Positions 1-31,881 of a DNA stretch of 61,452 nt are shown here, piece by piece. The first letter of the stretch is position 1, and the number at the start of each line of letters is the position of its first letter. This DNA is from a phage: sequence record PQ826432.1; one strand, 5' to 3'. The position numbers were made by a program, and so were the translations under genes. The notes under the pieces are model-generated. The model was not told the origin of the DNA, searched no databases, and saw only the letters and a list, made by a program, of their open reading frames with translations.

Positions 1-77
1 CCACTTCATACGGTTGAATATACGCACGGCTATCCCGAAGATGGAAATCCCCTACCCCGTAATTCATTACCCCGTTC
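1..77. repeat. 77-nt terminal overlap, identical to 61376..61452 (circular-permutation or assembly junction)
   Basis: exact identity of window start and end read directly. Confidence 0.9.
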
Positions 78-301
78 ATTGTTGGACCAACTGTACCTGT
101 GTTAATCAGGTTCTCTACCCAACGTTTAGTTGTCGCATCATAATCGCTAACGGGGTCCCCAGCTAAGGGTGTAGACCCAATTGGTCGAACGTTTAACCAC
201 GCAGCAGCACGGTCCGCAAGATCAGATAAGTTATTACTTTTATCCATCTTTTCGGATTTAAGCTTTGTAATGTCCTGAGGGATATTAGTATGAGTAGTCA
301 T
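1..301 (-). CDS. tail fibre protein, N-terminal segment; continues in-frame into 60024..61452 across the junction
   Basis: ATG at 299..301 with GAGGT 6 nt upstream, directly after stop of 312..578; no stop in frame down to codon 65..67, which equals the track start of ORF 60024..61442. Confidence 0.5.
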   Translation of the reverse strand, partial: MTTHTNIPQDITKLKSEKMDKSNNLSDLADRAAAWLNVRPIGSTPLAGDPVSDYDATTKRWVENLINTGTVGPTMNGVMNYGVGDFHLRDSRAYIQPYEV

Positions 302-311
302 TGCTTACCTC

Positions 312-578
312 TTATGCCCATTTACGTACACAAGGATTCTTAATAATAAATTGTTCAAGATCTGACAAGTCCACATTGTCCCCTATTATTCTTATGTTTA
401 TATAATAACCCTCTTTACCAATGACAACTGGAGTCTTACTTTTCGGGTCATCTACTATGAGGACAAAACCAATTTCATCTACAAACACTTTACCGTAGTT
501 TGTCTTAAGCCACTCACTATTAATGACAACATCCCGATAATGTTTTTCGTCTTTAAATTGTAAATTAATATCTTTCAT
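312..578 (-). CDS. hypothetical protein (88 aa)
   Basis: ORF track; ATG with GGGAG upstream; stop overlaps SD of next gene. Confidence 0.5.
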   Translation of the reverse strand: MKDINLQFKDEKHYRDVVINSEWLKTNYGKVFVDEIGFVLIVDDPKSKTPVVIGKEGYYINIRIIGDNVDLSDLEQFIIKNPCVRKWA

Positions 579-2684
579 TTAAACTTTCTCCCTCATCTGA
601 CCATCTGTTAATACCCGATTCCATACTCTAAGGTTTCGTATGTGTCCATATAATTTACTTGAATCGGAATGTCTTCCACCTATTTCTACTAGCGAGTCCG
701 AGTCCGTTCCTTTCCATGTAAAACCGTGTGAGGTCCCCCCCTTATTCCCATTAACAAATGAGGTGACATCTCCATTACCACTAAAAATAAAACCAAATAC
801 ATGTGAAGAAAATTGTTTTTCAAATGAATAACCCCTGGACAATATAGATGATCCATCCTCATTTACCACATACACATAAGGTGTAACGGAGGTTCTGTCA
901 AATTCCGCAACAAATGCTTTTCCTCTTACGTAGTATTGGTTATTATCCATTATCATTGGGTATGTATTATCTAATTGAAAGCTATCCCAGTTAACGCTCA
1001 CTTCAGCAAGGAATGAAATATTTGTCCCTGAGAAATTATTTCTTGCAGGTATAGTAACATAATCCACAGCCCTTGTTGCAGGAGTGCTTCCCGTAATAAT
1101 GAAGGAGGATGCACAAAAACCCTTTTCAAATTGCGGAGTACAAAATGATATTGTATCCCCAACTTGCAAGTTATCCCCGTTAGAGCCGCGAGCATAGTTA
1201 ATACTCCCAATCATGGCACCTGCAATATCAGAAAATTTACATGTTATTTCAACTTTCAGCCATCCATTATCTTCTTTGATGATTCTGTGTGTTACAGTTC
1301 CTCTAGCTTCTAGTGTATATGTCACCTCCCCTGTGTCGCATGACACTATAGATCTTGCAACAAGAATAAGGGCATTATCTTCCCCTAACGCATAGAATTG
1401 AGGAATTATGGAAATATTAGTTGCTTTCACTCTAATAGATAAGGTTGCGTATTCGTTCTGTTCACAATATATGTTGTTATTGTATTCGCAATAAAATAGT
1501 GATGGTGTATCACCTTGACCGTTTTCATTTGCGGTTGCGGTAGTATATGTAAATCCATATTTATCAACGCCGTAGGTAACGTCGCTACGATACTTATCAC
1601 TATTCAATGAAGATGGGTCATTGCTGTAAGTTATGTGGTTTGTCCTCTGCCCTTCAATTAAGAGTCCTTGCTTTTCAAATCTAGGTTCATCTATACCGGC
1701 AATACAAAACTCACCGTGCTTATTTATGTATGTTGCATTTGATGCACGCGAGAAGCTAACAACCTTATCAGAAGGCATTGTAATAACATCTTCACCAACT
1801 GTTATTTTCTTATAGCCTGGCGAGTAACCTGCAAGCATATCAAGCGAGTCATTAAATGGGATCCACACGTCAGGGAAAGGTTGAAGATCCGGAGCCCTGT
1901 TAGCTGCAACTTCCGCACGGTCTGCTTCTGCCTTTGCACGATCCGCGTCGTTTTTAGCTGCGGTTGCGCTTGTACCTGCGTTGCTTGCTTGTTTTCCAGC
2001 TTCGGTGGCGCTATTGCTTGCTTGTGTAGCAGACGCGGCAGCGGCGTCTTTTAGCGCGGTAGTTTCCGTTACTGCACTGTCCTTAATACCCTGTGTGTCT
2101 GCTTTTAACTGCTCAACGTCAGATTTTAGACCTTGAATTGTGGTCACAGCTTGTGATGCAGTATTAGCGGAACCAGCAGCGCCAGCCTGTGCTTGTTTAG
2201 CAGCGTCTTCGCTAGCTTTAGCATCATTTTTATAGACAAGTGCATCCGAAGCAGATTGAGCAGCCGAAGCCTTACTATTGCGAGCGTCCGTAGCATCTGC
2301 GTTTGCCGCCGCAGCAGAGCGACCAGCTTGCAAAGCATATTCTTCAGAGTTAGCTACAAGTTGTTGGACTTGTTTAATAACGTCCGGAGTTAATTCTTCT
2401 GGTGCCCAGTTAATTAAATAACCGTTCAGCGAACCTTCAGGGCTGTCGGAATAAATGACGATCTCACCAGCTTTATAAGGCTCAAGACCCTGCGGCCCAA
2501 TGATTACTTTGTAATGCCCCGCTTGTACAGTTACATTATAAGCACCTTCTCCATCTGTACGAAATACAGCCTCGCTACCATTAAGAACGGTAATTGTGTT
2601 CCCTTTTGCTAAAAGAGCAACGGTAGCGTTAACAATCGGTTTATTTAAACCATCTGTCAAAATACCATATAAACGAGTTGCCAT
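579..2684 (-). CDS. tail fibre protein (Ala-rich coiled-coil shaft, beta-rich C-terminal domain)
   Basis: ORF track 579..2714; start moved to ATG at 2684 (AGAGG SD; track start is TTG); composition typical of phage fibres. Confidence 0.65.
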   Translation of the reverse strand: MATRLYGILTDGLNKPIVNATVALLAKGNTITVLNGSEAVFRTDGEGAYNVTVQAGHYKVIIGPQGLEPYKAGEIVIYSDSPEGSLNGYLINWAPEELTPDVIKQVQQLVANSEEYALQAGRSAAAANADATDARNSKASAAQSASDALVYKNDAKASEDAAKQAQAGAAGSANTASQAVTTIQGLKSDVEQLKADTQGIKDSAVTETTALKDAAAASATQASNSATEAGKQASNAGTSATAAKNDADRAKAEADRAEVAANRAPDLQPFPDVWIPFNDSLDMLAGYSPGYKKITVGEDVITMPSDKVVSFSRASNATYINKHGEFCIAGIDEPRFEKQGLLIEGQRTNHITYSNDPSSLNSDKYRSDVTYGVDKYGFTYTTATANENGQGDTPSLFYCEYNNNIYCEQNEYATLSIRVKATNISIIPQFYALGEDNALILVARSIVSCDTGEVTYTLEARGTVTHRIIKEDNGWLKVEITCKFSDIAGAMIGSINYARGSNGDNLQVGDTISFCTPQFEKGFCASSFIITGSTPATRAVDYVTIPARNNFSGTNISFLAEVSVNWDSFQLDNTYPMIMDNNQYYVRGKAFVAEFDRTSVTPYVYVVNEDGSSILSRGYSFEKQFSSHVFGFIFSGNGDVTSFVNGNKGGTSHGFTWKGTDSDSLVEIGGRHSDSSKLYGHIRNLRVWNRVLTDGQMREKV

Positions 2685-2808
2685 TTTTACCTCTTGTTTC
2701 GCAGAGTTGATCAATTAATGGATGCACTATGGCATACAAATATGGTAAATTAAATTAGAATATAAAACAATATTGTCTATCATCTTTAACCACATTGTTG
2801 GAGTAATT

Positions 2809-17995: not shown

Positions 17996-19492
17996 CTATT
18001 CTTTATCGGAAGCGTCGTCTTCCTTAGGATCTTTGTTTACTTGCTGCTCTGCGTTTAAATCAGCTTTAGCATCATCGGGCAGAGGCCACTTCTTAAGCTC
18101 TTCTTCAAGAATTGCCATTTCTTCTTCAAAGCTTAGTGTGGTTAAGCCCTGATCAACAAGCCAGCCATGAATAGACTGCAAGCTGATCGGAGCCTTAAGG
18201 TTGCGTGCAGTAATAATTTGAACAAAGTCCTGACCGTTAAACATGCTCTTGGTAAATTCAAGATTAGGCTTAACCACAACTTTCTCTGGATCAGCACCCA
18301 TCCATTTAGCGCAGACCTTCAGCAAGTTTTCCAAACCTGCCGCACCAGTATACGCGATTCGAATCAGGCTAGCGGTACGCGCAGCGATACGCGTTTTCAT
18401 AGCTTCGCCTGATTCCTGCGTGCTCTTGGTGTTGTTTACCATCTGCCCAGCTTTAATCTGAGCTTCCTGCTTATCCGCTGCTAGGGCAAGGCGTTGCTCG
18501 GACAAACCGTCACCGCTAACGCCTACATATTTAGCGTCACCCCCAATAGCAACGTTAATGACCGCTCCAGGACCGATACGCTGAGGGGCTTTATCTCCAT
18601 TCTCCCCAGTACCACCAACGACAACTAATGTGTCCTGTCCCTGCATATGCAGACTCTGACGGTAATCCGCATCACTTCGGTACATGCTTAGGCAGATGTT
18701 AGCTAACCCCAGCAATGGAGGCGCTTCCGGTGCTGGAGTAATATCCGTTGTATTAACAAACTGGAAAGGTATTTCGTCCAGCGTATTACCTTTATAATAA
18801 GGAGCAATCATTTGCCCTTCATCATAATTGGTATTGTTGATAAATAGATGCTGGGAGTAAACCGCACCACCTGCAACTTCATCTGTGTCCATTGGACCTA
18901 ATTGCAGAACGCGATAACGCTTCTCTTCTTTCCAGTCAAACTGATTGACACGTACAGGACCGCTTTCATCCAGAACAACCATGTTCAAGTTGATATTGCC
19001 TAATTCATCTTTACCATCATCCCAGTTGATAATGGATAAAGCATCATAAACGCTAATATAAGGTCTGTTATTTACATCCTCACCTTTCGGCAAGTCCAGA
19101 AGCAGGCCCAAACGTCCATTTTTTAACTGCATTTCGTTGATGCGACGTAGCAGAGCAACAATGTCTTCACCATCCGCAGTGCACAGCTCCCGCATGTATT
19201 CCATTTCAGGAGGAAGCTGGATTGTAGGTGGCTTCTGGTGCAACAGACCTAAATTGTTTGTGACAGCACTTGAATAATCGTCAGGGAAGTTAGCACGCAG
19301 ACGATAAGCGAGCCAACGTTGAAAGCCCAAATCATTAGGGTTATTCATCCCATCGATAATCATGGAAGCTAAAGGTGGTAGATATTTAACACCTTCTTCC
19401 TTAATTTTATCTTCACCCTCATAGCAGTCGTTGCACTTAACCCATGCATTCTTCCACTTGTCATATAGCGGGTGAGTTGCATCAATACCCAT
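17996..19492 (-). CDS. portal protein
   Basis: 498 aa directly downstream of large terminase. Confidence 0.7.
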   Translation of the reverse strand: MGIDATHPLYDKWKNAWVKCNDCYEGEDKIKEEGVKYLPPLASMIIDGMNNPNDLGFQRWLAYRLRANFPDDYSSAVTNNLGLLHQKPPTIQLPPEMEYMRELCTADGEDIVALLRRINEMQLKNGRLGLLLDLPKGEDVNNRPYISVYDALSIINWDDGKDELGNINLNMVVLDESGPVRVNQFDWKEEKRYRVLQLGPMDTDEVAGGAVYSQHLFINNTNYDEGQMIAPYYKGNTLDEIPFQFVNTTDITPAPEAPPLLGLANICLSMYRSDADYRQSLHMQGQDTLVVVGGTGENGDKAPQRIGPGAVINVAIGGDAKYVGVSGDGLSEQRLALAADKQEAQIKAGQMVNNTKSTQESGEAMKTRIAARTASLIRIAYTGAAGLENLLKVCAKWMGADPEKVVVKPNLEFTKSMFNGQDFVQIITARNLKAPISLQSIHGWLVDQGLTTLSFEEEMAILEEELKKWPLPDDAKADLNAEQQVNKDPKEDDASDKE

Positions 19493-19503
19493 ATACCCTC
19501 CAG

Positions 19504-21063
19504 TTAAATACCGATAGTTTTACCAACACCTGTATAAACAGCTTGATCCAGAACCATATAACGTACTTCATCGCCCATATGGTCTTCACATTCCGTATCA
19601 ACGTCGTCCTGATCTACTTCATCGCGCGGAAGACTTGGAACCAGTTCAAAGAAATAATTGCAGTTATCGAAAACATACATTGCTGGATTTTCACGTGGTC
19701 CCGGCAAAGGTTTACCGTTTGCATCTTCCCGCAATGCAGCTTTAAGAAACTCACGCATTTTCTGCCATCCACGTTTACGTGACCCAGCAGATTTATCACT
19801 TCTCTTCCAATGGATACCGTTATACAGCTTGCCGTTAAGACGGATTTTCTTCGCCATTGTTGCGGCGGTAGAGTTATTGTTCTCCAGATCCCAAATAGAG
19901 TTATCCGCAGGTCCAGGAACTACACGGTCGTGTATACCCCAGGCCAATTCCCGCTCCAGTATACCGCTTGCAATCTCTGAGTCCAGCAAATGTAGGCCTT
20001 CGTTTGTTTTACCGTTAGTGCCGTACCATTCGTTAATACGGAACAAGTCACCGCGAACAGTAGAGAAGGTAGTACCATCTTCACGTACAACATCCGAACC
20101 GTCACTAATAGCCCACCAGCCAACGGAGAATGGTTTTGAAGAACCCCAGTCGAAAGAACGTGTGATCTTCCAGCTTGATGGGATTGGGAATGGGCGTATT
20201 TTATGAACAGTGCTACGCCACAGATCATCGAACATACCGCCGGAGGTGATATCCCAGCTACCGCCTAACCATGCGGCGCGTTTATTGGGGTCTGTGATAG
20301 ACATAAGTTCTGCAATATATTTCGGGCTCAGGTTTTTGTTCTCGCGGTAAGATCCGAAGATATGACATTGCGTCGTAACCACATCTTCCTCTTTCTGCGT
20401 CCGCGGGTTAAACACTCGCGTAGTTTTCCTGAGTATCTTACCCATCGGTGCGGCGTCAATGAAGCGTTTCTTAACCCAGTTATGCCCAGCACCAAACGGG
20501 TTACTAGTGGCAAACACTTCCAGAGGAATGTCTGGTAAATATGTGACAGTACCGTCCGGATTGATAATTGGATTATCTTCGGGCAGGAATGATGAACGGT
20601 TACAGGACATCATTGCTTCAAACAAACGCCCGTCCGGATACTTTGTTAATTCGTTCCATCCGATAAACGGGTATTCGTGACCATGATAAGACCAATAATC
20701 CTTTTCTTTGCAAGCAACACGGAACAGCAATTCTTCCCCAGTGGGCCAAACCCATTTATAATCAGACTTCGAGCTAAGGAATTTAGCACCATCTTTAAAT
20801 TCAGGGAACCAACGCTGTGATTTGGTTACAAGGTCATCAAGGTTTTTATATTCACGGTCGAATATAATACCTTTCCAGAATTTACCGTACCCTACGCCAA
20901 CATTTTTACGGAAACGCATAAGCTGGCAGTCTGTTTTTCCAGGACCGCGAGTTCCGTGGTATAAGATGATATCAGCAGGGCAGGATAGAGCGAGTGTCTG
21001 TGAACCTGGATGTGGTTTCCAGACTACTCGCGGCATGTTATCAGGTTGTTGGTTTAGCTCCAT
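19504..21063 (-). CDS. terminase large subunit
   Basis: 519 aa; Walker A-like GTRGPGKT near N-terminus. Confidence 0.8.
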   Translation of the reverse strand: MELNQQPDNMPRVVWKPHPGSQTLALSCPADIILYHGTRGPGKTDCQLMRFRKNVGVGYGKFWKGIIFDREYKNLDDLVTKSQRWFPEFKDGAKFLSSKSDYKWVWPTGEELLFRVACKEKDYWSYHGHEYPFIGWNELTKYPDGRLFEAMMSCNRSSFLPEDNPIINPDGTVTYLPDIPLEVFATSNPFGAGHNWVKKRFIDAAPMGKILRKTTRVFNPRTQKEEDVVTTQCHIFGSYRENKNLSPKYIAELMSITDPNKRAAWLGGSWDITSGGMFDDLWRSTVHKIRPFPIPSSWKITRSFDWGSSKPFSVGWWAISDGSDVVREDGTTFSTVRGDLFRINEWYGTNGKTNEGLHLLDSEIASGILERELAWGIHDRVVPGPADNSIWDLENNNSTAATMAKKIRLNGKLYNGIHWKRSDKSAGSRKRGWQKMREFLKAALREDANGKPLPGPRENPAMYVFDNCNYFFELVPSLPRDEVDQDDVDTECEDHMGDEVRYMVLDQAVYTGVGKTIGI

Positions 21064-21598
21064 CTTCAGTCTCTTTAACTAGTCGTTGTTGAGACTCGGA
21101 TGCAGTTTTTTCCCATTCGTCAATATTTGCTACAGCAGGGACTATCATTACGCCGCCTCTGTTAGTAACATCAATTTTAGCCTTCTTGGGCGCATCCAAA
21201 TCATAAATTTGTGCAAGCTTGCCCAATGCAGCCACTCTAGCAGCTTGAGAAGATCCCGGTCCTGTATAATGAGCTTCACGTTTTAATGCTTCAATGATAT
21301 GCTGACGCTCTAGGTCTGCTTCAATGTTAGCTTGCTCAGAAGTACGTTGAACACGGGATCTTTCAATCTCCTTGAGCTTCCATCGAACATAACAGTCCGT
21401 GGCAAAGCGTTGGCCAAGCTCCTGTGCAAACATAGCATTGAACCCGCATCTCATGCAAGCGTTAGTCCAATTGTAGTCGAACATATACTCAGCAACAACT
21501 TTGTCACGTATTGCCATCTCGTCAGCGGACAAGCTATTTGCATACTGGATATAATTCGTCCAGTCACGATCATATTGCTCTTGACTTGCCCCGTTCAT
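21041..21598 (-). CDS. terminase small subunit (by position)
   Basis: 185 aa immediately upstream of and overlapping terL. Confidence 0.45.
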   Translation of the reverse strand: MNGASQEQYDRDWTNYIQYANSLSADEMAIRDKVVAEYMFDYNWTNACMRCGFNAMFAQELGQRFATDCYVRWKLKEIERSRVQRTSEQANIEADLERQHIIEALKREAHYTGPGSSQAARVAALGKLAQIYDLDAPKKAKIDVTNRGGVMIVPAVANIDEWEKTASESQQRLVKETEDGAKPTT

Positions 21599-21618
21599 GG
21601 AAGCCCCCTTTCTTATTG

Positions 21619-21924
21619 CTATTTAGGCTGAATATAATTGCTTGATCCTACAAAATCAAGCGAAACATTTTCAGCTTCATAGCGTATGATTTCCTTAACC
21701 CTTAGCTTACATTCAGTCAGAGCAGTTTCTGTATCCTGTAAACGTCGGATAATATCTCTTGTGTAAACCAAAGGAATTTTCTCAACTTCCCGACATTCTA
21801 CCAACAGATGAGCTGGAAGTTTTATCTTCACTATCTGTGGAGCTGGGGGAGGTTGAGTCTGCGTCGAGCAACCTGCGCAAATCATCAGGAATACGCTCGT
21901 TAAGATAAGCTTTGACGTCAGCAT
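21619..21924 (-). CDS. o-spanin (Rz1-like lipoprotein), overlapping i-spanin
   Basis: internal ATG; hydrophobic signal ending in Cys (LMICAGC), Pro-rich segment; out of frame with i-spanin 3' end. Confidence 0.45.
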   Translation of the reverse strand: MLTSKLILTSVFLMICAGCSTQTQPPPAPQIVKIKLPAHLLVECREVEKIPLVYTRDIIRRLQDTETALTECKLRVKEIIRYEAENVSLDFVGSSNYIQPK

Positions 21925-22258
21925 TGCTTTTCTCCAGTGTCCGCAACTTGTCCTGAAGCAACTTGTGGTTATGTTGTTCATCTTGAATTGCAGAAGTTAG
22001 TTTCTTGAAAGAGTCCGTGTCCTTCTCCCTTTGTGCAGCAAGAAATACAACAGCCTCGCCCAGCTTTGCATTGTCTTTCTCCACAACGGTTAAACGTTCT
22101 TCAGCCAAACTTAAATTTGATTTGTTAAGCTCGTTCTGTGACCACAGGTGGGCAGCCACCCCGCATAAAAACACCACCGCGCCAATCATCAGGTACTCGA
22201 TAAATAGACGCGGTTTAGCTTTTATAAAACTGAAGAAGTTATTTAGAATCATTTTCAT
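21782..22258 (-). CDS. i-spanin (Rz-like)
   Basis: N-terminal TM helix then coiled coil; follows holin. Confidence 0.55.
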   Translation of the reverse strand: MKMILNNFFSFIKAKPRLFIEYLMIGAVVFLCGVAAHLWSQNELNKSNLSLAEERLTVVEKDNAKLGEAVVFLAAQREKDTDSFKKLTSAIQDEQHNHKLLQDKLRTLEKSNADVKAYLNERIPDDLRRLLDADSTSPSSTDSEDKTSSSSVGRMSGS

Positions 22259-22583
22259 GTTTGCAGTCCTCTGAGTCGAGTTTGATCCCTGTCCGCAATG
22301 CTAGAAGCGACTTTAGAGCTTTTAGCGTAGCACGTGAACCCGCCCAAGCGAATAGGCCAGCAAGGCCAAAAGCGAACCAAAGGCTGATATTAAACTCCCT
22401 GTAGATCGCGTACATTATAACGCCAAAGAACGCGGCGGATAAACCTTCAAGACATGCAATGCTTATCCGTACCTTCTTACCAGCGTCAATTGTACGCATG
22501 ACGTAACCGAGAGCTCCCCCAATGAGGGAAATCAGAGCAAACCCCGCTAGAACTGCCCAATGTTCGTTCGATGAGTTGAACAT
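22239..22583 (-). CDS. holin
   Basis: ORF track 22239..22616; start moved to ATG 22583 with GGAGGG SD; about three hydrophobic helices. Confidence 0.55.
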   Translation of the reverse strand: MFNSSNEHWAVLAGFALISLIGGALGYVMRTIDAGKKVRISIACLEGLSAAFFGVIMYAIYREFNISLWFAFGLAGLFAWAGSRATLKALKSLLALRTGIKLDSEDCKHENDSK

Positions 22584-22600
22584 GTTCCCTCCAATAAAAA

Positions 22601-22614
22601 GGGGCTGACGCCCC
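22601..22614 (-). terminator. short hairpin plus U-run between endolysin and holin (possible attenuator)
   Basis: minus strand GGGGC-GTCA-GCCCC followed by TTTTT, then holin SD. Confidence 0.3.
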
Positions 22615-22619
22615 ATCAG

Positions 22620-23057
22620 TTAAATTACCATTGCAATAGCGCGGTCGATCACGTCATCAGTATAAGGCATCATGCCATTTTCATGACGAATGATTGCTTT
22701 CACCAAACCTGACATTATTGTCTTGTCGAAGACATTAATTGGATCGTTAGGTTGAACACCAATTGCTTTGGCAACAGAACGAATATACGCTTCCGTATCG
22801 TTTTCATTAGGTGGAGCCCAGCGAGCGATAATTTCACGTACAGTGTCGATGTTTTTCTTACCCACATTGGGCAAGCCTTCACGTTTGGTGTAGTTTGTCA
22901 GGATTTTCGCTAGTGCACGAATGCCGTAAATCGGTTGCGTGAATTGAGCAAAAGATTTATCGGTCCGCTTATCAGCAGGAACTAAGCCCTGCCAATTGTC
23001 ACCCCAGCGAATATTACCTGGATTGTTATTACGAATACCACGAGGTTGAAGCGCCAT
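22620..23057 (-). CDS. putative endolysin
   Basis: ORF track 22620..23327; start moved to ATG 23057 with GGAGGA SD; position next to holin/spanins; catalytic class not determined. Confidence 0.45.
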   Translation of the reverse strand: MALQPRGIRNNNPGNIRWGDNWQGLVPADKRTDKSFAQFTQPIYGIRALAKILTNYTKREGLPNVGKKNIDTVREIIARWAPPNENDTEAYIRSVAKAIGVQPNDPINVFDKTIMSGLVKAIIRHENGMMPYTDDVIDRAIAMVI

Positions 23058-23139
23058 ATCGAGTTCCTCCGCTTGACATGAACCACTGAAGGGTAACAGA
23101 GAAACTTGATACGGCGCAAGAAGAATTGATCTAAGGAGA

Positions 23140-23400
23140 TTACCCGTCAAACCACTCGCTAATGTACCAGCTAACAAGACCTTTTCCACCTTCATCAACC
23201 CCGTAGCTGGAGTAAAAAGTGAAGTTATCGGGTTCGTGTTGCAGGATAACCATAAAGTCATGCTGAGTGCTGTCAATAATTGCAATGGCGATTTCCTCGT
23301 TATCCGTGATAAAGATTTCGCCACCAATTACAACATGCGTCCCGTGGTCAACTACCTTGCTGTGATAAGCAGGTGGGATCAGGTAACTGAATGTAGTCAT
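23140..23400 (-). CDS. hypothetical protein (86 aa)
   Basis: ORF track. Confidence 0.4.
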   Translation of the reverse strand: MTTFSYLIPPAYHSKVVDHGTHVVIGGEIFITDNEEIAIAIIDSTQHDFMVILQHEPDNFTFYSSYGVDEGGKGLVSWYISEWFDG

Positions 23401-23865
23401 TTAAAAACCCTCAAACGATATTGTATCAACGCCAAGAAATGCACATGTGGTATGCTTGATTGCTAGCTCGATAGCTTCGCGTGCGCTTGCACCAGCAGCT
23501 AGAGCACCCGCAGCAAACACGCAGCCACTGCCATCCGACCCCCATCCATCTAGCATGGGTTCGCTCAAAGTACCATCATTATAAATAAAATGGCAAGTAC
23601 CTTCCGGAGTAACAGCAAGACCGCAAGTTTGCCCATAATCGTCATCTTTGCTGTAAACTTTAATATCTGGGAACTTAACAGGCTCAGGACTATTAAAATA
23701 ACGCAGCACTTGGTCAGTGAATGCAGTCAAACCGCACAAGCCCAGCAAGAAGCGTCCACGATGTCCATTTACGCTGTGAACTTTCTTATAAGCAGTCACA
23801 GCTTCCCCGCGCATAACTCCACGGTCCGCAGCTAATACTTTTCCATCGTAAGCAATGGTTGTCAT
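23401..23865 (-). CDS. HslV-like Ntn-hydrolase peptidase (proteasome beta-type)
   Basis: N-terminus MTTIAYDG with Thr2; GLCGLTAF and GSDGSGCVFAAGALAAG align by eye to HslV GFAGGTADAF and GSGGPYAQAAARAL. Confidence 0.55.
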   Translation of the reverse strand: MTTIAYDGKVLAADRGVMRGEAVTAYKKVHSVNGHRGRFLLGLCGLTAFTDQVLRYFNSPEPVKFPDIKVYSKDDDYGQTCGLAVTPEGTCHFIYNDGTLSEPMLDGWGSDGSGCVFAAGALAAGASAREAIELAIKHTTCAFLGVDTISFEGF

Positions 23866-24047
23866 TTAATTTTCCTTTGGTCTTGAATAATAACAATACA
23901 TAAGACAAATAGAATAAGACAGATGCACAGCCCTGTACTGGCAAAGATTCGAATAACCGTGGAAGGTTGTTCGACTACTGTATAGGTATAAAGCCCAGCG
24001 AACATTAACGTCGCAAATAAAAACAATCCGGCGTATAGTTTGGTCAT
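23862..24047 (-). CDS. small membrane protein (61 aa)
   Basis: ORF track; two hydrophobic segments. Confidence 0.4.
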   Translation of the reverse strand: MTKLYAGLFLFATLMFAGLYTYTVVEQPSTVIRIFASTGLCICLILFVLCIVIIQDQRKIK

Positions 24048-24109
24048 TGTGTACCCCTCTTATTCGATGGGTACACAATACAATGAAGGGTTATCTGATA
24101 GCAAGGTTT

Positions 24110-24532
24110 TTAATTAAGCACAATCTCAACGTCTTTAACCCAAGTATGAATGATAAATGCTCCTGGCTGTTCAGGATCTTGATCCGGGCCAACGTAGAAC
24201 TTTTTACCTTCCCAACCTTTAATCGGGTCATGTACAATAAACTTGTGATTAGTTGTATCGATCACAACCTGATGCAGTGCTCCAGGAACATTGAGACTTG
24301 GGACAGTGCACAAAAACAAACCACCCATGCATATAGTTTCACGCCCACCGCCTACAGAACAGATGTGGTCAACATTATTTTGTACTAGATATTCGGAAAT
24401 TGTTATTTCCCAGTTGTTATAATAACGACTATGAAATTCCGCAATTACTTCTTCTACAGGTCTATTAAGGATCATTGCCAAACACGCAGAAACGCATGTA
24501 TTTAAAGTTGGCTGTTTGACATGTTTAATCAT
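24110..24532 (-). CDS. putative papain-like cysteine peptidase (C39-like)
   Basis: QPTLNTCVSACLAMIL resembles the C39 Cys motif; downstream His (HQVVID). Confidence 0.4.
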   Translation of the reverse strand: MIKHVKQPTLNTCVSACLAMILNRPVEEVIAEFHSRYYNNWEITISEYLVQNNVDHICSVGGGRETICMGGLFLCTVPSLNVPGALHQVVIDTTNHKFIVHDPIKGWEGKKFYVGPDQDPEQPGAFIIHTWVKDVEIVLN

Positions 24533-24533
24533 C

Positions 24534-25004
24534 TTATGCCTCGTATATGACTTCCGGCTCGTTATTATAAGGACGCAGCAGCAAACGCGCTACCATCGCC
24601 GTACGCCCGCTTAACCCTTGTAGATGCACAAACCCAACAAACTGGTAGTGACAACCGCGCAGGTGATGCAAGCTCTTAGCGCAATGGCACGCTTCTAAAC
24701 GAAGTGTCTCGCCCGTCTGCCATTTAACCACAATGGTAGAGCTCGCGGTCATGTTAATTTCTACATCACCGATTTCAACCTGAAGACGCAGAACATCTTC
24801 TACAACATTACGGACATAGACAAGGATCTGTGATGTGGGCATAACAATGAGCCCATTCCAGTCCTTCCCGCGACCCAATCCGCAATAACGCGCAAAGTTG
24901 GCTATCAACTGCGTTTCTGTAACCTGTTTTACTTCAAACGACTTCTTCAGTTGGCAGTCTTTGGATTCGTCCATTGCATCAACAATAGTTTTAACGTCAG
25001 CCAT
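24534..25004 (-). CDS. hypothetical protein (156 aa)
   Basis: ORF track. Confidence 0.45.
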   Translation of the reverse strand: MADVKTIVDAMDESKDCQLKKSFEVKQVTETQLIANFARYCGLGRGKDWNGLIVMPTSQILVYVRNVVEDVLRLQVEIGDVEINMTASSTIVVKWQTGETLRLEACHCAKSLHHLRGCHYQFVGFVHLQGLSGRTAMVARLLLRPYNNEPEVIYEA

Positions 25005-25007
25005 TAT

Positions 25008-25400
25008 TTACTCCGCTAATGTGTAAGAAATACCGGATGCTTTAATCCGTCTGTACATATCCATAGTACCAGCTCCGCCCGGAAACACAATAGCGTGATC
25101 TGGTTTAGGATCAGTATCCAGCATTAATTGATTACGGTAAGCGCCCGCTTGGGCATTATAAGCACCTCTGGCGTTATACCGTATCTTAGTATTTGGAAGC
25201 GAAAGATTGTCCCACGGTGCAGGAAACGCCTCCGTCTTAATACCGTTCCGCTCCGCCCAATGTGCGCAAATGCGGTCAACACCGTCAGCGTCACCGTGGC
25301 GAAGTGTGGTTATCCTTCTTTGCATATGCAGCTTATCCAACTGAGCGTAAATATACTCCACATGCTTAAAATCTCGACCTCCGGTGACGACTAATAGCAT
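25008..25400 (-). CDS. SLOG-family protein (DUF2493 / YspA-like)
   Basis: motifs VVTGGRDF, HGDADGVD, FPGGAGT typical of the family. Confidence 0.55.
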   Translation of the reverse strand: MLLVVTGGRDFKHVEYIYAQLDKLHMQRRITTLRHGDADGVDRICAHWAERNGIKTEAFPAPWDNLSLPNTKIRYNARGAYNAQAGAYRNQLMLDTDPKPDHAIVFPGGAGTMDMYRRIKASGISYTLAE

Positions 25401-25467
25401 TATTTCTTCTCCATCGGTTTCAGCATTTCGTCAATAAAACCTTTCCAATATTTGATATTTTCTTCAA

Positions 25468-25737
25468 TCACCATGCCACCTCAGTACGCTCGTTATCCCG
25501 TTGGTCCATTGAAGGATAGTATAGGACAGTAAAACCAGAATCAGCTAACCATTTAGCAATCTTCATAGTGGTTGGGTCTTGAGTGTCGGGATTACCAACA
25601 GCTCCGTATTTAGTTACCAGTGATACTTTATTGTATCCCTTTGTAGCAGCTACGCGAATGCTATCACTGATAAATTCAATATCCTCGCTAATATCCAGCT
25701 TATCACTTAATTCACGAGCTTCTTGAGCGGTAATCAT
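25468..25737 (-). CDS. hypothetical protein (89 aa)
   Basis: ORF track. Confidence 0.4.
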   Translation of the reverse strand: MITAQEARELSDKLDISEDIEFISDSIRVAATKGYNKVSLVTKYGAVGNPDTQDPTTMKIAKWLADSGFTVLYYPSMDQRDNERTEVAW

Positions 25738-25937
25738 TTCACAATCTCCTTAAAACGGTTATACAAATCACGATAGAACAAAGGACCGTTAGCGTTGCGA
25801 CGCAGGAAGTCCTTTGCTACAGCACGAAGTTCCTTTACTTCTTGTGCCAACGACATAACTTCGTCATTGCTTGCACAGTCATATTCCGCAAGCTTAGCAA
25901 CACGCTCATCTGTCAGTCTATGCATTATTATCTCCAC
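25734..25937 (-). CDS. hypothetical protein (67 aa)
   Basis: ORF track; overlapping start/stop. Confidence 0.4.
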   Translation of the reverse strand: MEIIMHRLTDERVAKLAEYDCASNDEVMSLAQEVKELRAVAKDFLRRNANGPLFYRDLYNRFKEIVK

Positions 25938-26152
25938 CTGTTACGGTCATTACATTTATATTCATACTCAGTAATAACCTGAGGATACATTGACATTACA
26001 TTACCTTTTGCATCGTAAATATATTGCCAAATAATATCCTCCCGGCTGTTACCAGTACGTTGGCAGTTTTGCCGCTCCATTTCTTTAGAGTCTACGATTG
26101 CAAATACAACGAAAGCGGCAATTATAGCGCCTAATATCATGAATATTTTCAT
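25928..26152 (-). CDS. small membrane protein (74 aa)
   Basis: ORF track; N-terminal TM helix. Confidence 0.4.
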   Translation of the reverse strand: MKIFMILGAIIAAFVVFAIVDSKEMERQNCQRTGNSREDIIWQYIYDAKGNVMSMYPQVITEYEYKCNDRNRWR

Positions 26153-26451
26153 GGGTTAAGCCTATATTCTTTAATTTCCATTAGCGTATTGCGCCAGTCC
26201 ACACCTTCAATGTCAACTTCACCGCAGTAGCGACTCTTATGACCATCATGCAACCATTCTTTAAGTTGTTCATATGCTTTAGGCTTACTATTATAACAGT
26301 GGACAACACCGTTAGCGTCCACTGCAATGTGAGTAGCCCAAGGCGCCACAGGGATCTCCTGACCAAAAAACAGGACTTTGATTGCAGTTTTAAAATCGAC
26401 CGCAGGGATATCCGGTTTTTCTCGATTTAAATCCATTCCTAAATACAGCAT
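26149..26451 (-). CDS. hypothetical protein (100 aa)
   Basis: ORF track. Confidence 0.4.
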   Translation of the reverse strand: MLYLGMDLNREKPDIPAVDFKTAIKVLFFGQEIPVAPWATHIAVDANGVVHCYNSKPKAYEQLKEWLHDGHKSRYCGEVDIEGVDWRNTLMEIKEYRLNP

Positions 26452-26502
26452 AACAATCTCCAGATAATTAAGGGCTCCGTAGAGCCCATTATAGATTGAT
26501 AA

Positions 26503-26781
26503 TTACACTTCCTCCAGGAAATTGGGGCTTACAAGACCAGTATAACTGATTTCGTAAGCATCCTCTTCTTCATCGTATTCATCGCTACCCTGGCTAACAA
26601 TTACAGTATGGTTCCACTGCCCGAAAAGGATATGCAGATCAAACACCACCTTATTAACAGTAACAATAGAACCAGCTTTCAGTTCCCGAAACTCAACACC
26701 ATCGCCCGGAGTATAGCCTACAGCGCCAATATCTGTGGTTAAACGATACTCTTTACCTTCAACAATATCTTCTACACGCAT
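26503..26781 (-). CDS. hypothetical protein (92 aa)
   Basis: ORF track. Confidence 0.4.
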   Translation of the reverse strand: MRVEDIVEGKEYRLTTDIGAVGYTPGDGVEFRELKAGSIVTVNKVVFDLHILFGQWNHTVIVSQGSDEYDEEEDAYEISYTGLVSPNFLEEV

Positions 26782-27023
26782 TCTTCTTGCTCCTCTACAT
26801 ATTTAGTGACACATTTTTGAAAATTAAGAACGATATTTTTCTCTTTTACGGAGTGAAATTTAACACGTTCCGGACAGATAATCCAGCCTTCAAAACGTTG
26901 AGTAGCGTCATTCCATGCAGCACGACCATAATAGCCGCGATATGGACCTAATCGCATTGCATTTACCTCTGTAACCACATTGCTGGAGGTGCTGGGTGTA
27001 GCGCTTGCACTGGAGTCGCACAT
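26772..27023 (-). CDS. hypothetical protein (83 aa), first gene of minus-strand block
   Basis: ORF track; AGGAGG SD. Confidence 0.45.
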   Translation of the reverse strand: MCDSSASATPSTSSNVVTEVNAMRLGPYRGYYGRAAWNDATQRFEGWIICPERVKFHSVKEKNIVLNFQKCVTKYVEEQEECV

Positions 27024-27369
27024 AAATACCTCCTTGATGCTCTAAAACTGGTAAGAATTGATAGAAATTGGTTGCATCCGCTTAAAGATGGTAGCTATGG
27101 AGCAGCTACAAGACGAATTATACGTTGACGACTCAGAATTTACTACCAAAATCCATATATTTAGAAAGGATGAGCGCAATATATTCAAAAAGAAGGTAGG
27201 TGGGGTCATGTATGTAGGTGGATAGGCTATGTGATGGGTGTGTATGTCGGCAACAACATAGTTGACGAGTTAGATTTTCAAACAAGGATACTATCAGGAT
27301 GGACAGGGCACGCCCCAGCGATCCAAGTACCTGGAAAAGGATGGGTGGGGTCGCGCGGCTGGGCCTGTG

Positions 27370-27481
27370 TGGGTCGGTGTGCGCTGTGCGAGCTGTGCGC
27401 GACGCTGTGCGCCTGTTTCGCTCGAGCTAATGCATTACCATTGCCTATGTACATTAGCTCGCTAGCGTGGCGCTGTGTGCG
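27370..27481. repeat. GC/GT-rich direct repeats (GCTGTGCG-type) and a 10-bp inverted repeat
   Basis: CTGTGCG recurs at least 4 times; CGAGCTAATG at 27423 pairs with CATTAGCTCG at 27452. Confidence 0.5.
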
Positions 27482-27640
27482 TTATAGCGCCGCTCCTCTT
27501 TTGCGGGCTTTACGTGCCACATAACGCTGTTCCATTACTTCGTTGTATTGTCGATCCCATTTAGCATCCATTACTTCGGTTACGATCAGTGCTACCAGTG
27601 GAGATACTACTGCGACGACCATCATGATTAAGATTAACAT
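27482..27640 (-). CDS. small membrane protein (52 aa)
   Basis: ORF track 27482..27706; start moved to ATG 27640 with GGAG SD; track N-terminus overlaps a conserved leader. Confidence 0.4.
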   Translation of the reverse strand: MLILIMMVVAVVSPLVALIVTEVMDAKWDRQYNEVMEQRYVARKARKRGAAL

Positions 27641-27722
27641 TTTGTTTTCTCCGTTGTTTGGTTGATGTGTGTAGTATCCACCAGACCGATCATGTTGTCT
27701 AGGCATTTTGTGCTATTAATTG
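27641..27722 (-). promoter_or_regulatory. conserved early promoter/leader module, copy 1
   Basis: minus strand ATAGCACAA...TAGACA-17 nt-GATACTACACACATC..SD..ATG; shares a 15-mer with copy 2. Confidence 0.35.
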
Positions 27723-27843
27723 CGCGTAGAACTCGCGCCCTGTCTGCATGGCTTGGGACCAGTTGGTTTCCTCCCACTCCATGCGCATAACCTGCAATAA
27801 TAACGCGTGCTGTGCGCGTGTAAGCGTGTATTTGCGTGACATA

Positions 27844-27996
27844 TTATTTCACCTGAACTAAATCATATTGTTCGTAGATTTCGCTAATGTACATATCGAA
27901 CTGGCCCATTAAGAAGATTTCGGCCTCCTCCCAGCTTGGGGCAGATACATAACCAGCGATTTTGAGCGTTTCTTTTTCGATCAGTTTAAAGTGCAT
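27844..27996 (-). CDS. small protein (50 aa), not in ORF track
   Basis: ATG with GAGGAA SD preceded by same leader module as 27482..27640. Confidence 0.35.
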   Translation of the reverse strand: MHFKLIEKETLKIAGYVSAPSWEEAEIFLMGQFDMYISEIYEQYDLVQVK

Positions 27997-28080
27997 TTTG
28001 TGTTCCTCAGTATTGTTTCGATGTGTGTAGTATCAGGCATCCAAGCGAAGTTGATTAGGCCAATTGTGCTATCTTTGATA
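27997..28080 (-). promoter_or_regulatory. conserved early promoter/leader module, copy 2
   Basis: minus strand ATAGCACAA...GATACTACACACATC..SD..ATG. Confidence 0.35.
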
Positions 28081-28139
28081 TGGCGAACATCCTTTATATA
28101 CGCGTGTGCGCGTAATACACCAATCACATCAAACCGCAT

Positions 28140-28165
28140 TAGGCAGAATGTGCTATTACATGATT
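28140..28165. promoter_or_regulatory. third copy of TGTGCTAT-containing motif
   Basis: AGGCAGAATGTGCTATTACATG resembles motifs at 27700 and 28057. Confidence 0.3.
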
Positions 28166-28270
28166 TAAATCAATATCAATTATGCCACTTTTGGCCTATT
28201 CAATATCACGATGCAAGGCTATTATTACTTCAACAAAGCAATACTGCTTAACCACATTAAGGGTTAGACC

Positions 28271-28420
28271 ATGTACGAAGTTATTAACAAATACGGTGTT
28301 ATCGTCGCGTTCATTGAAGCCAACAATTTCGTTGAAGCTGAAGCGGCTGCAATTGACCAATTGGGCATTAGTCCGGCAGAATTTGATGCTGACTACTGTG
28401 TAGATAAAATTACAAATTAA
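28271..28420 (+). CDS. small protein (49 aa), not in ORF track
   Basis: ATG with AAGGG upstream; first ORF of plus-strand block. Confidence 0.3.
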   Translation: MYEVINKYGVIVAFIEANNFVEAEAAAIDQLGISPAEFDADYCVDKITN

Positions 28421-28492
28421 GTGATTTATATCTTGCCTGGTTGATCTGACTGGGCAATAATAAGTCAACTTAAACAAAACGAGGATTACATC

Positions 28493-28741
28493 ATGGCTAC
28501 TTCTATCGTCACTAAATTTTTGGCACCAACTAACACCAAAGGCGCACGCATTGCAGTTAAAGGTTTTGGCAAGCGCAAAGTCTATAGCTGGGACTATGCA
28601 CTCGACGTAACGCTTAACCATAAAGCAGCAGTACAGCAGTTCCTCAAAGCGTTTAACGCCGAAAACGACACCGACTATAGCATCGTTGCTTTCGCAAGCA
28701 TGGATATCGCAACCGTCGATTTCGTAGCAATCGTGCAATAA
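28493..28741 (+). CDS. hypothetical protein (82 aa)
   Basis: ORF track; GAGG SD. Confidence 0.5.
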   Translation: MATSIVTKFLAPTNTKGARIAVKGFGKRKVYSWDYALDVTLNHKAAVQQFLKAFNAENDTDYSIVAFASMDIATVDFVAIVQ

Positions 28742-28814
28742 GTTTTCTTATACACTGCTCATCATTACGGTGGGCAGTAATAAGCAAACTAACATTAACG
28801 AAAGGAGCTATACC

Positions 28815-29429
28815 ATGTCTAAAGTAACTCACCGCGAACAGGACAAAATGCGCTACACCATGAAAACGAATGCACGCCGCGCTCTGAAGACCCGCTGGGG
28901 TCAGGTTGCACGCGACGCACACGAACAGTTAATCCATCAGGACGATATTGGTTTTTACATCATCGAAAAGGAAGTCCTTCAGGTTCTGCGCGAGCACGAA
29001 AAAGCGCAACAGCCCGAGCAGAAAGTCCCAGCACCGACCGCCGCGCCAGCTGCTAGCGTCTCGGTACTGCGCCCGATGGTAAATCCGGAAATTGTCAAAA
29101 GCTGCCTCGAATCTCTGGAGCAGGAGGAAGAGAAAGATATGAAACACGCAAAAGCTGCCACGCAGGTTTCTGAAATCAAAATTGAAGAGCCAAAAGCTGC
29201 CTTGCCAAAACAAGATGCAAAAGCTGCTCGCTGCGATTTCAAAAATGGCGCTCGCAAGCCGCTCAAAGGAAAAACTGCCGAAGTGTGGGCAATGGGTGAC
29301 AAGCTTCTGAAGGAACTGGGCCGCACGCCGGAGCTGAAAGAGATGAAAGCTGCAATGCCTTCTTACAACGGGACGACGGTAGCCATTCAGTTCTACGCCT
29401 GGCGCAAATATAACGGCCTGGACGCATAA
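28815..29429 (+). CDS. hypothetical protein (about 204 aa)
   Basis: ORF track 28770..29429; ATG 28815 with AAAGGAG SD. Confidence 0.5.
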   Translation: MSKVTHREQDKMRYTMKTNARRALKTRWGQVARDAHEQLIHQDDIGFYIIEKEVLQVLREHEKAQQPEQKVPAPTAAPAASVSVLRPMVNPEIVKSCLESLEQEEEKDMKHAKAATQVSEIKIEEPKAALPKQDAKAARCDFKNGARKPLKGKTAEVWAMGDKLLKELGRTPELKEMKAAMPSYNGTTVAIQFYAWRKYNGLDA

Positions 29430-29485
29430 TCTATAACCACACTGTTCAACTGACGGGCTTCTGCGGGAGCCCTAAGGATAAGAAG

Positions 29486-29662
29486 ATGCAATTAGATAGC
29501 TTCGCGACTCAATACCTAAAAGACCTTCAGCGCCGTGTAAATGAAGCTCGCGCCAAAGAAGGCCTCAAGCCTCTAAACCAGTCCCAGCTTGTTGGCGAAT
29601 TAATCGAGCAAGCTGCTACTCAGTCAACATTATTTGTCGGCTCTGTGTTCGTAAGGAAATAA
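29486..29662 (+). CDS. small protein (58 aa), not in ORF track
   Basis: ATG with AAGGA SD, stop 2 nt before next gene. Confidence 0.35.
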   Translation: MQLDSFATQYLKDLQRRVNEARAKEGLKPLNQSQLVGELIEQAATQSTLFVGSVFVRK

Positions 29663-29664
29663 AT

Positions 29665-29991: not shown

Positions 29992-29998
29992 ACTACTT

Positions 29999-30024
29999 CC
30001 GGACCAGTCCTCCTACTGGTCCGG
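29999..30024 (+). terminator. stem-loop after 29665..29991
   Basis: 10-bp stem CCGGACCAGT/ACTGGTCCGG with 6-nt loop; weak U-run. Confidence 0.45.
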
Positions 30025-31870: not shown

Positions 31871-31881
31871 AAGGATAAGTC

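What the first reader, a model, noticed from the sequence alone, without database searches (positions are those of the whole stretch)
1..301. Window is a circular permutation; a tail-fibre gene spans the junction and the track start is truncated
Seen: 1..77 equals 61376..61452 exactly. On the minus strand an ATG at 299..301 with a GAGGT SD opens a frame with no stop through codon 65..67, which is the track's start codon for ORF 60024..61442. The real gene therefore starts at 301 and continues through the junction, about 550 aa in total. Inference: the 77-nt overlap is an assembly or permutation junction, not a genuine genome end inside a gene.
Basis: seen in the sequence. Interest (0 to 1): 0.45.

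Follow-up and report, generated by a model that had tools for sequence, protein, structure and literature searches.

The report
Assembler end-overlap splitting a tail-fibre gene
The identical 77 bases at both ends of this phage genome are left over from how the assembler writes out a circular sequence; removing one copy restores an ordinary 550-residue lateral tail-fibre gene, so this matters for annotation but is not new biology.

Summary
Window 1..77 equals 61376..61452 exactly. It is the only long exact repeat in the window, and none of 100 shuffles reproduced it.

Removing one copy gives a 61,375-bp unit. On the minus strand, the ATG at 299..301 (GAGGT at 307..311) then opens a 1,653-nt frame that crosses the junction and stops at 60024..60026, giving 550 aa. 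The listed ORF 60024..61442 (472 aa) starts at internal Met79. Keeping both copies breaks the frame, because 77 is not a multiple of 3.

Independent sequences run straight across the junction:
- Logan contigs: 10,887 nt at 93% and 2,912 nt at 96%.
- Seuratvirus phages SA126VB and phiG7.
- Several T5-like phages.

Ten homologues start at the same MTT(Y/H)TNIPQD, and residues 66-101 are invariant in all of them. Both 77-mers map to a single internal locus in phiG7.

77 is a standard SPAdes k value, and a published report describes the same artefact in circularly permuted phage genomes.

The gene encodes the distal lateral tail-fibre subunit of a Seuratvirus (Queuovirinae). It is related to DT57C LtfA and has a C-terminal S74 self-cleaving chaperone domain.

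The result is ordinary and useful only for correcting the annotation. The physical ends cannot be determined without sequencing reads.

The parts
1..77 (.). First copy of the exact 77-nt terminal overlap. On the minus strand it codes for the last base of the Met75 codon, residues 76-100 and the first base of the Val101 codon of the tail-fibre protein.
   Evidence: Maps to one internal locus of phiG7, 19499..19575.
61376..61452 (.). Second, redundant copy of the 77-nt overlap. It should be removed to obtain the 61,375-bp unit genome.
   Evidence: Removal restores the ORF; keeping it gives a frameshift and a stop at aa 104.
1..301 (-). 5' part of the lateral tail-fibre (distal subunit) gene: start ATG at 299..301, residues 1-100 and the first base of codon 101.
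   Evidence: The N-terminus MTTHTNIPQD... aligns from residue 1 with 9 homologues.
60024..61375 (-). 3' part of the same gene: the rest of codon 101 through residue 550, with the stop at 60024..60026. Together with 1..301 this makes 1,653 nt, or 550 aa.
307..311 (-). Shine-Dalgarno GAGGT, 5 nt upstream of the ATG. It overlaps the end of the upstream 88-aa gene (context TAAGAGGTAAGCAATG).
   Evidence: The same 10-nt gap between the 88-aa gene and the fibre gene occurs in SA126VB, L004 and L005.
61440..61442 (-). Internal Met79 codon, identical to the codon at 65..67. It was wrongly taken as the start of the truncated 472-aa ORF 60024..61442.
60027..60374 (-). C-terminal intramolecular chaperone / Peptidase_S74 region, residues 435-550. 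The predicted cleavage Ser435 is at 60372..60374 and Lys440 at 60357..60359.
   Evidence: Pfam PF13884 over aa 435-487, 54.5 bits against a cut-off of 22. S435 and K440 are invariant in alignment A1. PDB 6F45 matches aa 422-540.
59979..60006 (-). Intrinsic-terminator-like hairpin (AGCGCGTCTTCGGGCGCGCT) followed by a T-run, just downstream of the fibre stop codon.
   Evidence: A terminator is annotated at the same place in SA126VB.
312..578 (-). 88-aa gene of unknown function (phrog_1361) that always lies between the two fibre genes.
   Evidence: The same gene is present in SA126VB, phiG7, L004, L005 and L006.
579..2684 (-). Proximal lateral tail-fibre subunit, 701 aa. The likely start is ATG at 2684 with an AAGAGGT ribosome-binding site; the ORF tool lists a TTG at 2714. 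It has an N-terminal phage_tail_N domain and a C-terminal Laminin_G_3 domain.

Best explanation
The window is one complete 61,375-bp genome of a Seuratvirus-like (Queuovirinae) E. coli siphophage that assembled as a circle. A de Bruijn-graph assembler of the SPAdes type, with largest k = 77, wrote the cyclic path out as a linear contig opened at an arbitrary point. The first k bases are therefore repeated at the end.

The opening point fell inside the gene for the distal lateral tail-fibre subunit. As a result, ORF callers see only a 472-aa C-terminal piece that starts at internal Met79. They miss the 5' piece, which runs off the start of the window.

Shown here:
- Removing one copy restores a 550-aa gene with its own ribosome-binding site and terminator.
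- The restored sequence is contiguous in independent assemblies and in related phages.

Inferred:
- Reads closed the circle because virion DNA of this genus is terminally redundant and probably circularly permuted by pac-headful packaging. This mode was inferred from TerL for phage Seurat.
- By homology to DT57C/DT571/2 LtfA, the protein is a trimeric fibre. Its conserved N-terminus (about aa 1-45) docks on the proximal 701-aa subunit.
- Its variable region, from about aa 290 to 434, binds a host surface glycan, most likely O-antigen.
- Its C-terminal S74 chaperone (Ser435/Lys440) assists trimer folding and then cuts itself off.
For: Repeat and reading frame:
- The 77-nt overlap is exact and unique.
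- With one copy, the ORF is intact at 1,653 nt. With both copies, the frame breaks and a stop appears at aa 104.

Contiguity in independent sequences:
- Single-piece blastn alignments cross the rejoined junction in Logan contig L004 (10,887 nt, 93.2%), L005 (2,912 nt, 96.3%) and SA126VB (6,870 nt, 88.6%).
- The same holds for T5-like phages SP15, ESCO40, AKFV33 and NBEco002 at about 80%.
- The whole genome is collinear with phiG7 as a circular permutation, and both 77-mers hit one phiG7 locus.
- Identity to the phiG7 gene falls smoothly through the repeat (93, 85, 85, 80%), so there is no sign of a chimeric join.

Gene model and function:
- Orthologues of 551 and 552 aa share 96% and 91% identity over the full length. 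The 552-aa orthologue (P0002) lies in the interior of a 60.5-kb contig with the same gene order.
- All ten aligned homologues share the start MTT(Y/H)TNIPQD. Residues 66-101 are invariant with no indel.
- PDB 8HQZ (DT57C LtfA) matches at E 1e-129, with the junction peptide identical.
- PHROG 6921 matches at E 9e-210 and Pfam S74 at 54.5 bits.

Literature and genus identity:
- PMC9409062 reports identical 77-bp ends from SPAdes on circularly permuted phage genomes, with genes spanning the contig ends.
- For phage Seurat, TerL comparison suggested pac-headful packaging and the contig was closed by PCR.
- LtfA function and S74 autocleavage are described in PMC4728585.
- Queuovirinae identity is supported by QueC, QueD, FolE and radical-SAM genes, and by about 93-96% nucleotide identity to Seuratvirus genomes over most of the aligned length.
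Against: - No reads or assembler log are available. The assembler identity rests only on the overlap length of 77 and on a published precedent.
- The packaging mode of this phage was not tested here.
- For the sister genus, phage 9g shows a preferred read-start site that other reads cross. This fits a pac site or a terminal repeat elsewhere in the genome, so the virion DNA population may not be fully permuted.
- TerL gave only a weak Pfam match (Terminase_6N, E 5e-6, with no individual stretch passing the threshold) and no PDB relative. It could not be typed here.
- The receptor, trimeric state and autocleavage are inferred from homology only.
Confidence: 0.95

Rival explanations
1. The 77 bp are a genuine short direct terminal repeat. 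Virion DNA would have fixed ends at this site, so the fibre gene is split in the particle and becomes whole only after circularisation or concatemer formation in the cell.
For: - Exact terminal direct repeats are what a phage with direct terminal repeats would show in a linear record.
- Kulikov et al. proposed a terminal repeat of unknown size for the related phage 9g.
Against: - The repeat length equals an assembler k value, and the same 77-bp artefact is documented.
- The repeat lies inside an invariant coding stretch that is also present in T5-like phages, which have quite different genome ends.
- Relatives and raw assemblies are opened elsewhere and carry the 77-mer locus once, internally.
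- The 9g end hot spot lies in the non-coding region between the divergent early and late genes, not in the fibre gene.
- phiG7 shows an analogous 127-nt overlap at a different arbitrary site.
Confidence: 0.02
2. The join is a mis-assembly, either a chimera of two co-occurring phage variants or a false circularisation through a repeated 77-mer. On this view the 550-aa ORF is not a real gene.
For: - Tail-fibre genes are mosaic, and mixed phage populations can collapse in assembly graphs.
- Identity to phiG7 differs on the two sides of the gene: about 93% at the 5' end and below 40% in the distal part.
Against: - The drop in identity is gradual across the repeat. The collapse occurs about 600 nt further on, at roughly CDS nt 900, which is the usual boundary of the receptor-binding region.
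- Two independent assemblies carry the same full-length allele at 96% and 91% identity, and their DNA is contiguous over 2.9-10.9 kb across the junction.
- The 77-mer is otherwise unique in the genome.
- Every genome region is present exactly once relative to phiG7.
Confidence: 0.02
3. The contig is a true linear genome end and the fibre gene is really truncated. The 472-aa product from Met79 would be the real protein, and 1..301 a gene remnant.
For: The mechanical ORF list gives 60024..61442 as a 472-aa ORF starting with ATG.
Against: - Met79 lies in the middle of a 36-residue invariant block and has no ribosome-binding-site context of its own.
- All homologues begin 78 residues upstream at the same MTT... 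start, preceded by a ribosome-binding site.
- The missing N-terminus is the conserved attachment region.
- The two fragments fit in frame with no gap.
Confidence: 0.01

Closest known systems
SPAdes-type k-mer overlap at the ends of circular contigs (77-bp identical ends reported for circularly permuted Salmonella phage genomes, PMC9409062)
   Same: - Exact identity of the two contig ends.
- A length of exactly 77.
- A genome that closes on itself.
- A gene spanning the contig extremities.
- The same fix: delete one copy.
   Different: Nothing detectable. The assembler actually used for this window is not known to me.
Escherichia phage phiG7 (OQ791410, Seuratvirus) and vB_EcoS_SA126VB (OL960573)
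   Same: - Same genome organisation.
- About 93-97% nucleotide identity over most of the genome (phiG7).
- Same five-gene tail-tip and fibre block: J-like gene, DUF6453 gene, proximal fibre, 88-aa gene, distal fibre.
- phiG7 also carries an exact terminal overlap, 127 nt long, at an arbitrary site.
   Different: - Their distal fibre proteins (586 aa) are only about 61-62% identical to this one. The divergence is concentrated after about residue 290 (the receptor-binding part).
- Their records are opened at other positions.
LtfA of T5-like phages DT57C / DT571/2 (PDB 8HQZ chain d; PMC4728585, PMC10713586)
   Same: - Residues 14-366 align with LtfA 526-879 at E 1e-129.
- A C-terminal Peptidase_S74 autocleavable chaperone is present.
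- The experimentally supported role of LtfA is O-antigen recognition, needed to penetrate the O-antigen shield.
   Different: - LtfA is 1,076 aa and attaches directly to the T5-type tail through its own N-terminal domain, with the help of LtfC.
- Here the fibre is split into a 701-aa proximal subunit, with a lambda-Stf-like phage_tail_N domain, and this 550-aa distal subunit.
- The region between about aa 367 and 434 has no counterpart in LtfA.
Genuine direct terminal repeats of T7-, N4- or T5-like phages
   Same: An identical sequence at both ends of a linear record.
   Different: - Genuine terminal repeats mark fixed physical ends and are conserved at the ends of related genomes.
- This repeat sits inside a coding sequence, is single-copy and internal in relatives, and has an assembler k length.

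Membership tests
Assembler k-mer overlap of a circular contig | The two contig ends are exactly identical, with no mismatch | tested here: met
   1..77 equals 61376..61452, with 0 mismatches.
Assembler k-mer overlap of a circular contig | The overlap length equals a k value used by the assembler | tested here: met
   The longest overlap is exactly 77. From my own knowledge, 77 is the top default SPAdes k for reads of about 150 nt. PMC9409062 reports identical 77-bp ends and attributes them to the SPAdes algorithm. The assembler log for this window is not available.
Assembler k-mer overlap of a circular contig | Removing one copy gives a sequence that is contiguous in independent genomes | tested here: met
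   Single alignments cross the junction in L004, L005, SA126VB, phiG7 and T5-like phages.
Assembler k-mer overlap of a circular contig | Reads span the junction at normal depth | not testable with these tools
   No reads are available.
Genuine direct terminal repeat (fixed physical ends) | The repeat is at the termini of related genomes | tested here: not met
   The locus is single-copy and internal in phiG7, SA126VB, L004 and L006. Records of the genus open at many different points.
Genuine direct terminal repeat (fixed physical ends) | Excess read starts at the borders and doubled coverage over the repeat | not testable with these tools
   No reads are available.
Tail fibres with a C-terminal intramolecular chaperone (Peptidase_S74; T5 Ltf/LtfA, endosialidase type) | A Peptidase_S74 domain scoring above Pfam's gathering score | tested here: met
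   PF13884 at 54.5 bits against a cut-off of 22, covering aa 435-487.
Tail fibres with a C-terminal intramolecular chaperone (Peptidase_S74; T5 Ltf/LtfA, endosialidase type) | A conserved Ser...Lys pair at the cleavage motif (S-D-x-R-x-K) | tested here: met
   SDERIK at aa 435-440. S435 and K440 are invariant in 10 homologues.
Tail fibres with a C-terminal intramolecular chaperone (Peptidase_S74; T5 Ltf/LtfA, endosialidase type) | Autoproteolytic release of the chaperone, and a trimeric mature fibre | not testable with these tools
   This needs protein biochemistry. No structure prediction was run.
Genus Seuratvirus (Queuovirinae) | High nucleotide identity over most of the genome to members of the genus | tested here: met
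   Roughly 55 of 61.4 kb aligns to phiG7, most of it at 93-97%. A 25-kb segment aligns at 92-95% with about 76-85% coverage to CSP1, KS_A8, SeppeHuegi and CAjan.
Genus Seuratvirus (Queuovirinae) | A 7-deazaguanine (preQ0) synthesis gene cluster | tested here: met
   QueC (E 8e-75), PTPS/QueD, GTP cyclohydrolase I/FolE and a radical-SAM protein lie at 46.9-51.3 kb. A DpdA homologue is inferred only from alignment to the gene that phiG7 annotates as the '7-deazaguanosine inserting enzyme'.
Headful (pac) packaging with circularly permuted virion DNA | TerL groups with headful terminases, and there are no fixed ends | not tested
   The only support is the published inference for phage Seurat. TerL here gave a weak Terminase_6N match and no PDB relative.

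The most novel reading that the evidence does not exclude
The 77-bp repeat could be a real short terminal redundancy with a fixed terminase cut inside the lateral tail-fibre gene. The virion would then carry a split receptor-binding gene that is rebuilt only after the DNA ends recombine in the cell. The sequence evidence makes this very unlikely, but only read-level data can exclude it formally.
Probability: 0.02. Interest if true: 0.5.

Novelty: already known. Interest (0 to 1): 0.08.

Why it matters
The value is practical. The record should be trimmed to 61,375 bp, treated as circular for gene calling, and ideally reopened at the small terminase gene, as is the convention for this genus. Otherwise the main host-range determinant is annotated as a 472-aa fragment that lacks its attachment domain, and the 77 bp may be mistaken for a direct terminal repeat. 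That error appears to have happened with the 127-nt 'repeat_region' in the public phiG7 record. The restored fibre allele is known so far only from two metagenomic contigs, which makes it of modest interest for host-range prediction.

Tried and rejected
- The truncated 472-aa product is not on record in that index.
- An exact 137-nt junction-spanning pattern found nothing in IMG/VR.
- A protein-guided scan of IMG/VR found no relative. Independent contiguity therefore had to come from GenBank phages and from Logan contigs reached through the protein search.
- Typing the packaging mode from TerL failed: only a weak Terminase_6N match and no PDB relative.
- Literature searches for experimentally mapped Seuratvirus termini found none. 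One search was wasted on pigeon-pea papers.
- A chimeric join was considered and rejected, because the identity profile across the repeat is smooth.
- A tandem 77-nt duplication in a 61,452-bp circle was considered and rejected, because it breaks the frame.
- No structure prediction was run, since it would not bear on the junction question.

Full report
**Observation.** The first 77 bases of the window are identical to the last 77, and 77 is the longest terminal overlap. The 77-mer occurs nowhere else, even with three mismatches allowed, and none of 100 dinucleotide-preserving shuffles gave a match. It is also the only long exact direct repeat in the 61,452 bases.

On the minus strand there is an ATG at 299..301. 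GAGGT lies at 307..311 with a 5-nt spacer, and the TAA stop of an upstream 88-aa gene lies at 312..314. The frame opened by this ATG stays open to position 1. The mechanically listed ORF 60024..61442 (472 aa) starts at the codon 61440..61442. This is the same codon as 65..67, which is Met79 of the longer frame. The description is correct in every detail.

**Re-circularisation.** Deleting one copy gives a 61,375-bp unit. The minus-strand frame then runs from 301 through the junction to a stop at 60024..60026. That is 1,653 nt, or 550 codons plus a single stop. If both copies are kept and the ends are abutted, the frame is lost, because 77 is not a multiple of 3. A stop then appears at residue 104. 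A terminator-like hairpin with a T-run follows the stop codon.

**Is the rejoined sequence real?** Several independent lines of evidence say yes.

- *Whole-genome comparison.* The window is a circular permutation of Seuratvirus phiG7, with every region present once. Window 3..25473 matches phiG7 19501..44974 at 96.5%, and window 60819..61452 matches phiG7 18942..19575. Both 77-mers therefore fall on a single internal phiG7 locus.
- *Contiguity in relatives.* A 4.2-kb piece spanning the junction gives single-piece alignments that cross it in SP15, ESCO40, AKFV33 and NBEco002 at about 80%. It also gives near full-length matches in phiG7 (88%) and SA126VB (83%), and a 77% match in BRET (87.5%).
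- *Closest orthologues.* The protein search found a 551-aa protein at 96% identity and a 552-aa protein at 91% identity, both covering the full length. The 552-aa protein lies in the interior of a 60,521-nt Logan contig with the same neighbours.
- *DNA-level contiguity.* The rejoined region aligns in one piece across the junction to three sequences:

| Target | Aligned length | Identity |
|---|---|---|
| Logan contig L004 | 10,887 nt | 93.2% |
| Logan contig L005 | 2,912 nt | 96.3% |
| SA126VB (L001) | 6,870 nt | 88.6% |

- *Protein alignment.* In an alignment of ten homologues, all start at MTT(Y/H)TNIPQD. Residues 66-101, which include the junction-encoded stretch, are invariant and have no indel.
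- *Solved structure.* The junction peptide MNGVMNYGVGDFHLRDSRAYIQPYEVV is identical in DT57C LtfA, a chain of the solved virion structure 8HQZ.
- *No chimeric break.* Identity to the phiG7 gene declines smoothly through the repeat (93, 85, 85, 80%). It collapses only about 600 nt further on, at the usual boundary of the receptor-binding part.

**Why the repeat is there.** From my own knowledge, 77 is the largest default k of SPAdes for reads of about 150 nt, and such assemblers print a cyclic path with its first k-mer repeated at the end. [quoted passage not shown] The authors saw this with circularly permuted genomes, found some genes spanning the contig extremities, and removed one copy (PMC9409062).

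The public phiG7 record shows the same pattern with a different k. It has an exact 127-nt terminal overlap annotated as 'repeat_region'. This overlap maps to a single-copy site at window 40193..40319, on the boundary between the ligase and ATPase genes. Records and raw contigs of the genus are opened at many different points, as expected for arbitrary linearisation.

**Why the reads closed a circle.** This step is inferred. For phage Seurat, comparison of TerL suggested pac-headful packaging, and the contig was closed by PCR across the ends (PMC4342423). For phage 9g of the sister genus, a read-start hot spot was found in the non-coding region between the divergent early and late genes, and other reads crossed it (PMC4276943). 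Neither observation places an end in the fibre gene.

I could not type the terminase here. It gave only a weak Terminase_6N match and no relative in the PDB. No reads are available, so the physical ends of this phage remain unmeasured.

**What the gene is.** The phage belongs to Seuratvirus (Queuovirinae). Most of its genome is about 93-97% identical to members of the genus. It carries QueC, QueD, FolE and a radical-SAM enzyme, as well as TerL and TerS.

The split gene is the last gene of the tail-tip and fibre block. The block runs as follows, with the same order in SA126VB, phiG7 and the Logan contigs:

1. A J-like protein (883 aa as listed by the ORF tool).
2. A DUF6453 gene on the opposite strand.
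3. A 701-aa proximal fibre subunit with a phage_tail_N domain and a Laminin_G_3 domain.
4. An 88-aa protein of unknown function.
5. The 550-aa distal fibre subunit.

The 550-aa protein matches tail-fibre PHROG 6921 at E 9e-210. It aligns with DT57C LtfA residues 526-879 at E 1e-129. It ends in a Peptidase_S74 intramolecular chaperone domain with the motif SDERIK, and Ser435 and Lys440 are invariant among homologues.

In DT57C and DT571/2, LtfA recognises specific O-antigens and is needed to pass the O-antigen shield. Its S74 domain is predicted to cleave itself (PMC4728585). By homology, I infer the same roles here. The conserved N-terminus would dock on the proximal subunit. The variable region from about aa 290 to 434 would bind glycan. 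The chaperone domain would be released after trimer folding. None of these roles was tested.

**Comparison and verdict.** Both the phenomenon and the gene family are well known. The only mildly new element is the fibre allele itself. It is 61-67% identical to fibres of named phages, and near-identical copies were found only in two metagenomic contigs.

The finding is a correct diagnosis of an assembly artefact and of a truncated gene call. It deserves a low interest score. The action needed is to trim the record to 61,375 bp, call genes on the circle, and not annotate the 77 bp as a terminal repeat.

Noticed in passing
L002 1..127 and L003 29948..30074 (phiG7, OQ791410); corresponds to window 40193..40319: The public phiG7 record carries an exact 127-nt terminal overlap annotated as 'repeat_region'. 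It maps to a single-copy site in this window, on the boundary between the DNA ligase and ATPase genes. It is probably the same kind of assembler artefact (k = 127) left in a GenBank entry.
   Followed up: partly
window 312..2128 plus the first ~850 nt of the fibre gene (301..1 and 61375..~60820): Most of the lateral-fibre cassette is about 77-81% identical at the DNA level to T5-like Markadamsvirinae (SP15, AKFV33, ESCO40, FFH_1, phiAPCEc03), in single or two-piece alignments. The shared part comprises the proximal subunit apart from its N-terminus, the 88-aa gene, and about half of the distal fibre gene. Only the first ~185 aa of the proximal subunit (the phage_tail_N domain) are not shared. 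This suggests module exchange between phage families with a lineage-specific adaptor.
   Followed up: partly
window 60374..~60580 (residues ~367-434 of the fibre): The stretch just before the S74 cleavage site is much shorter than in the 586-aa Seuratvirus alleles. In the ten-sequence alignment it is shared only with the two Logan orthologues P0001 and P0002. It may be a distinct receptor-binding tip.
   Followed up: no
window 41599..41883: Seven imperfect 30-nt direct repeats (CAGCC.G..CAGCA...) form a Q/P/A-rich low-complexity stretch near the C-terminus of ORF 41047..41916.
   Followed up: no
window 27638..27678 and 27994..28034: A 41-nt direct repeat (76% identity) begins with CAT on the + strand, which reads as ATG on the minus strand, at positions where small minus-strand ORFs are listed. 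It lies near the early/late divergence region and may be a repeated translation-initiation or promoter module.
   Followed up: no
window 579..2714: The ORF tool lists a TTG start at 2714 (711 aa). The likely real start of the proximal fibre gene is the ATG at 2684, which has an AAGAGGT ribosome-binding site and gives 701 aa. This is close to the 702-codon gene of SA126VB.
   Followed up: yes
hits H19/H20 and H15-H17: Seuratvirus records of identical length are opened at different points. SLUR25 and SLUR63 are both 58,998 bp, with the same flank at 50.5 kb and 10.1 kb respectively. Some hosts named in related records look odd for close relatives of E. coli phages (Aeromonas SD04, Cronobacter CSP1).
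   Followed up: no
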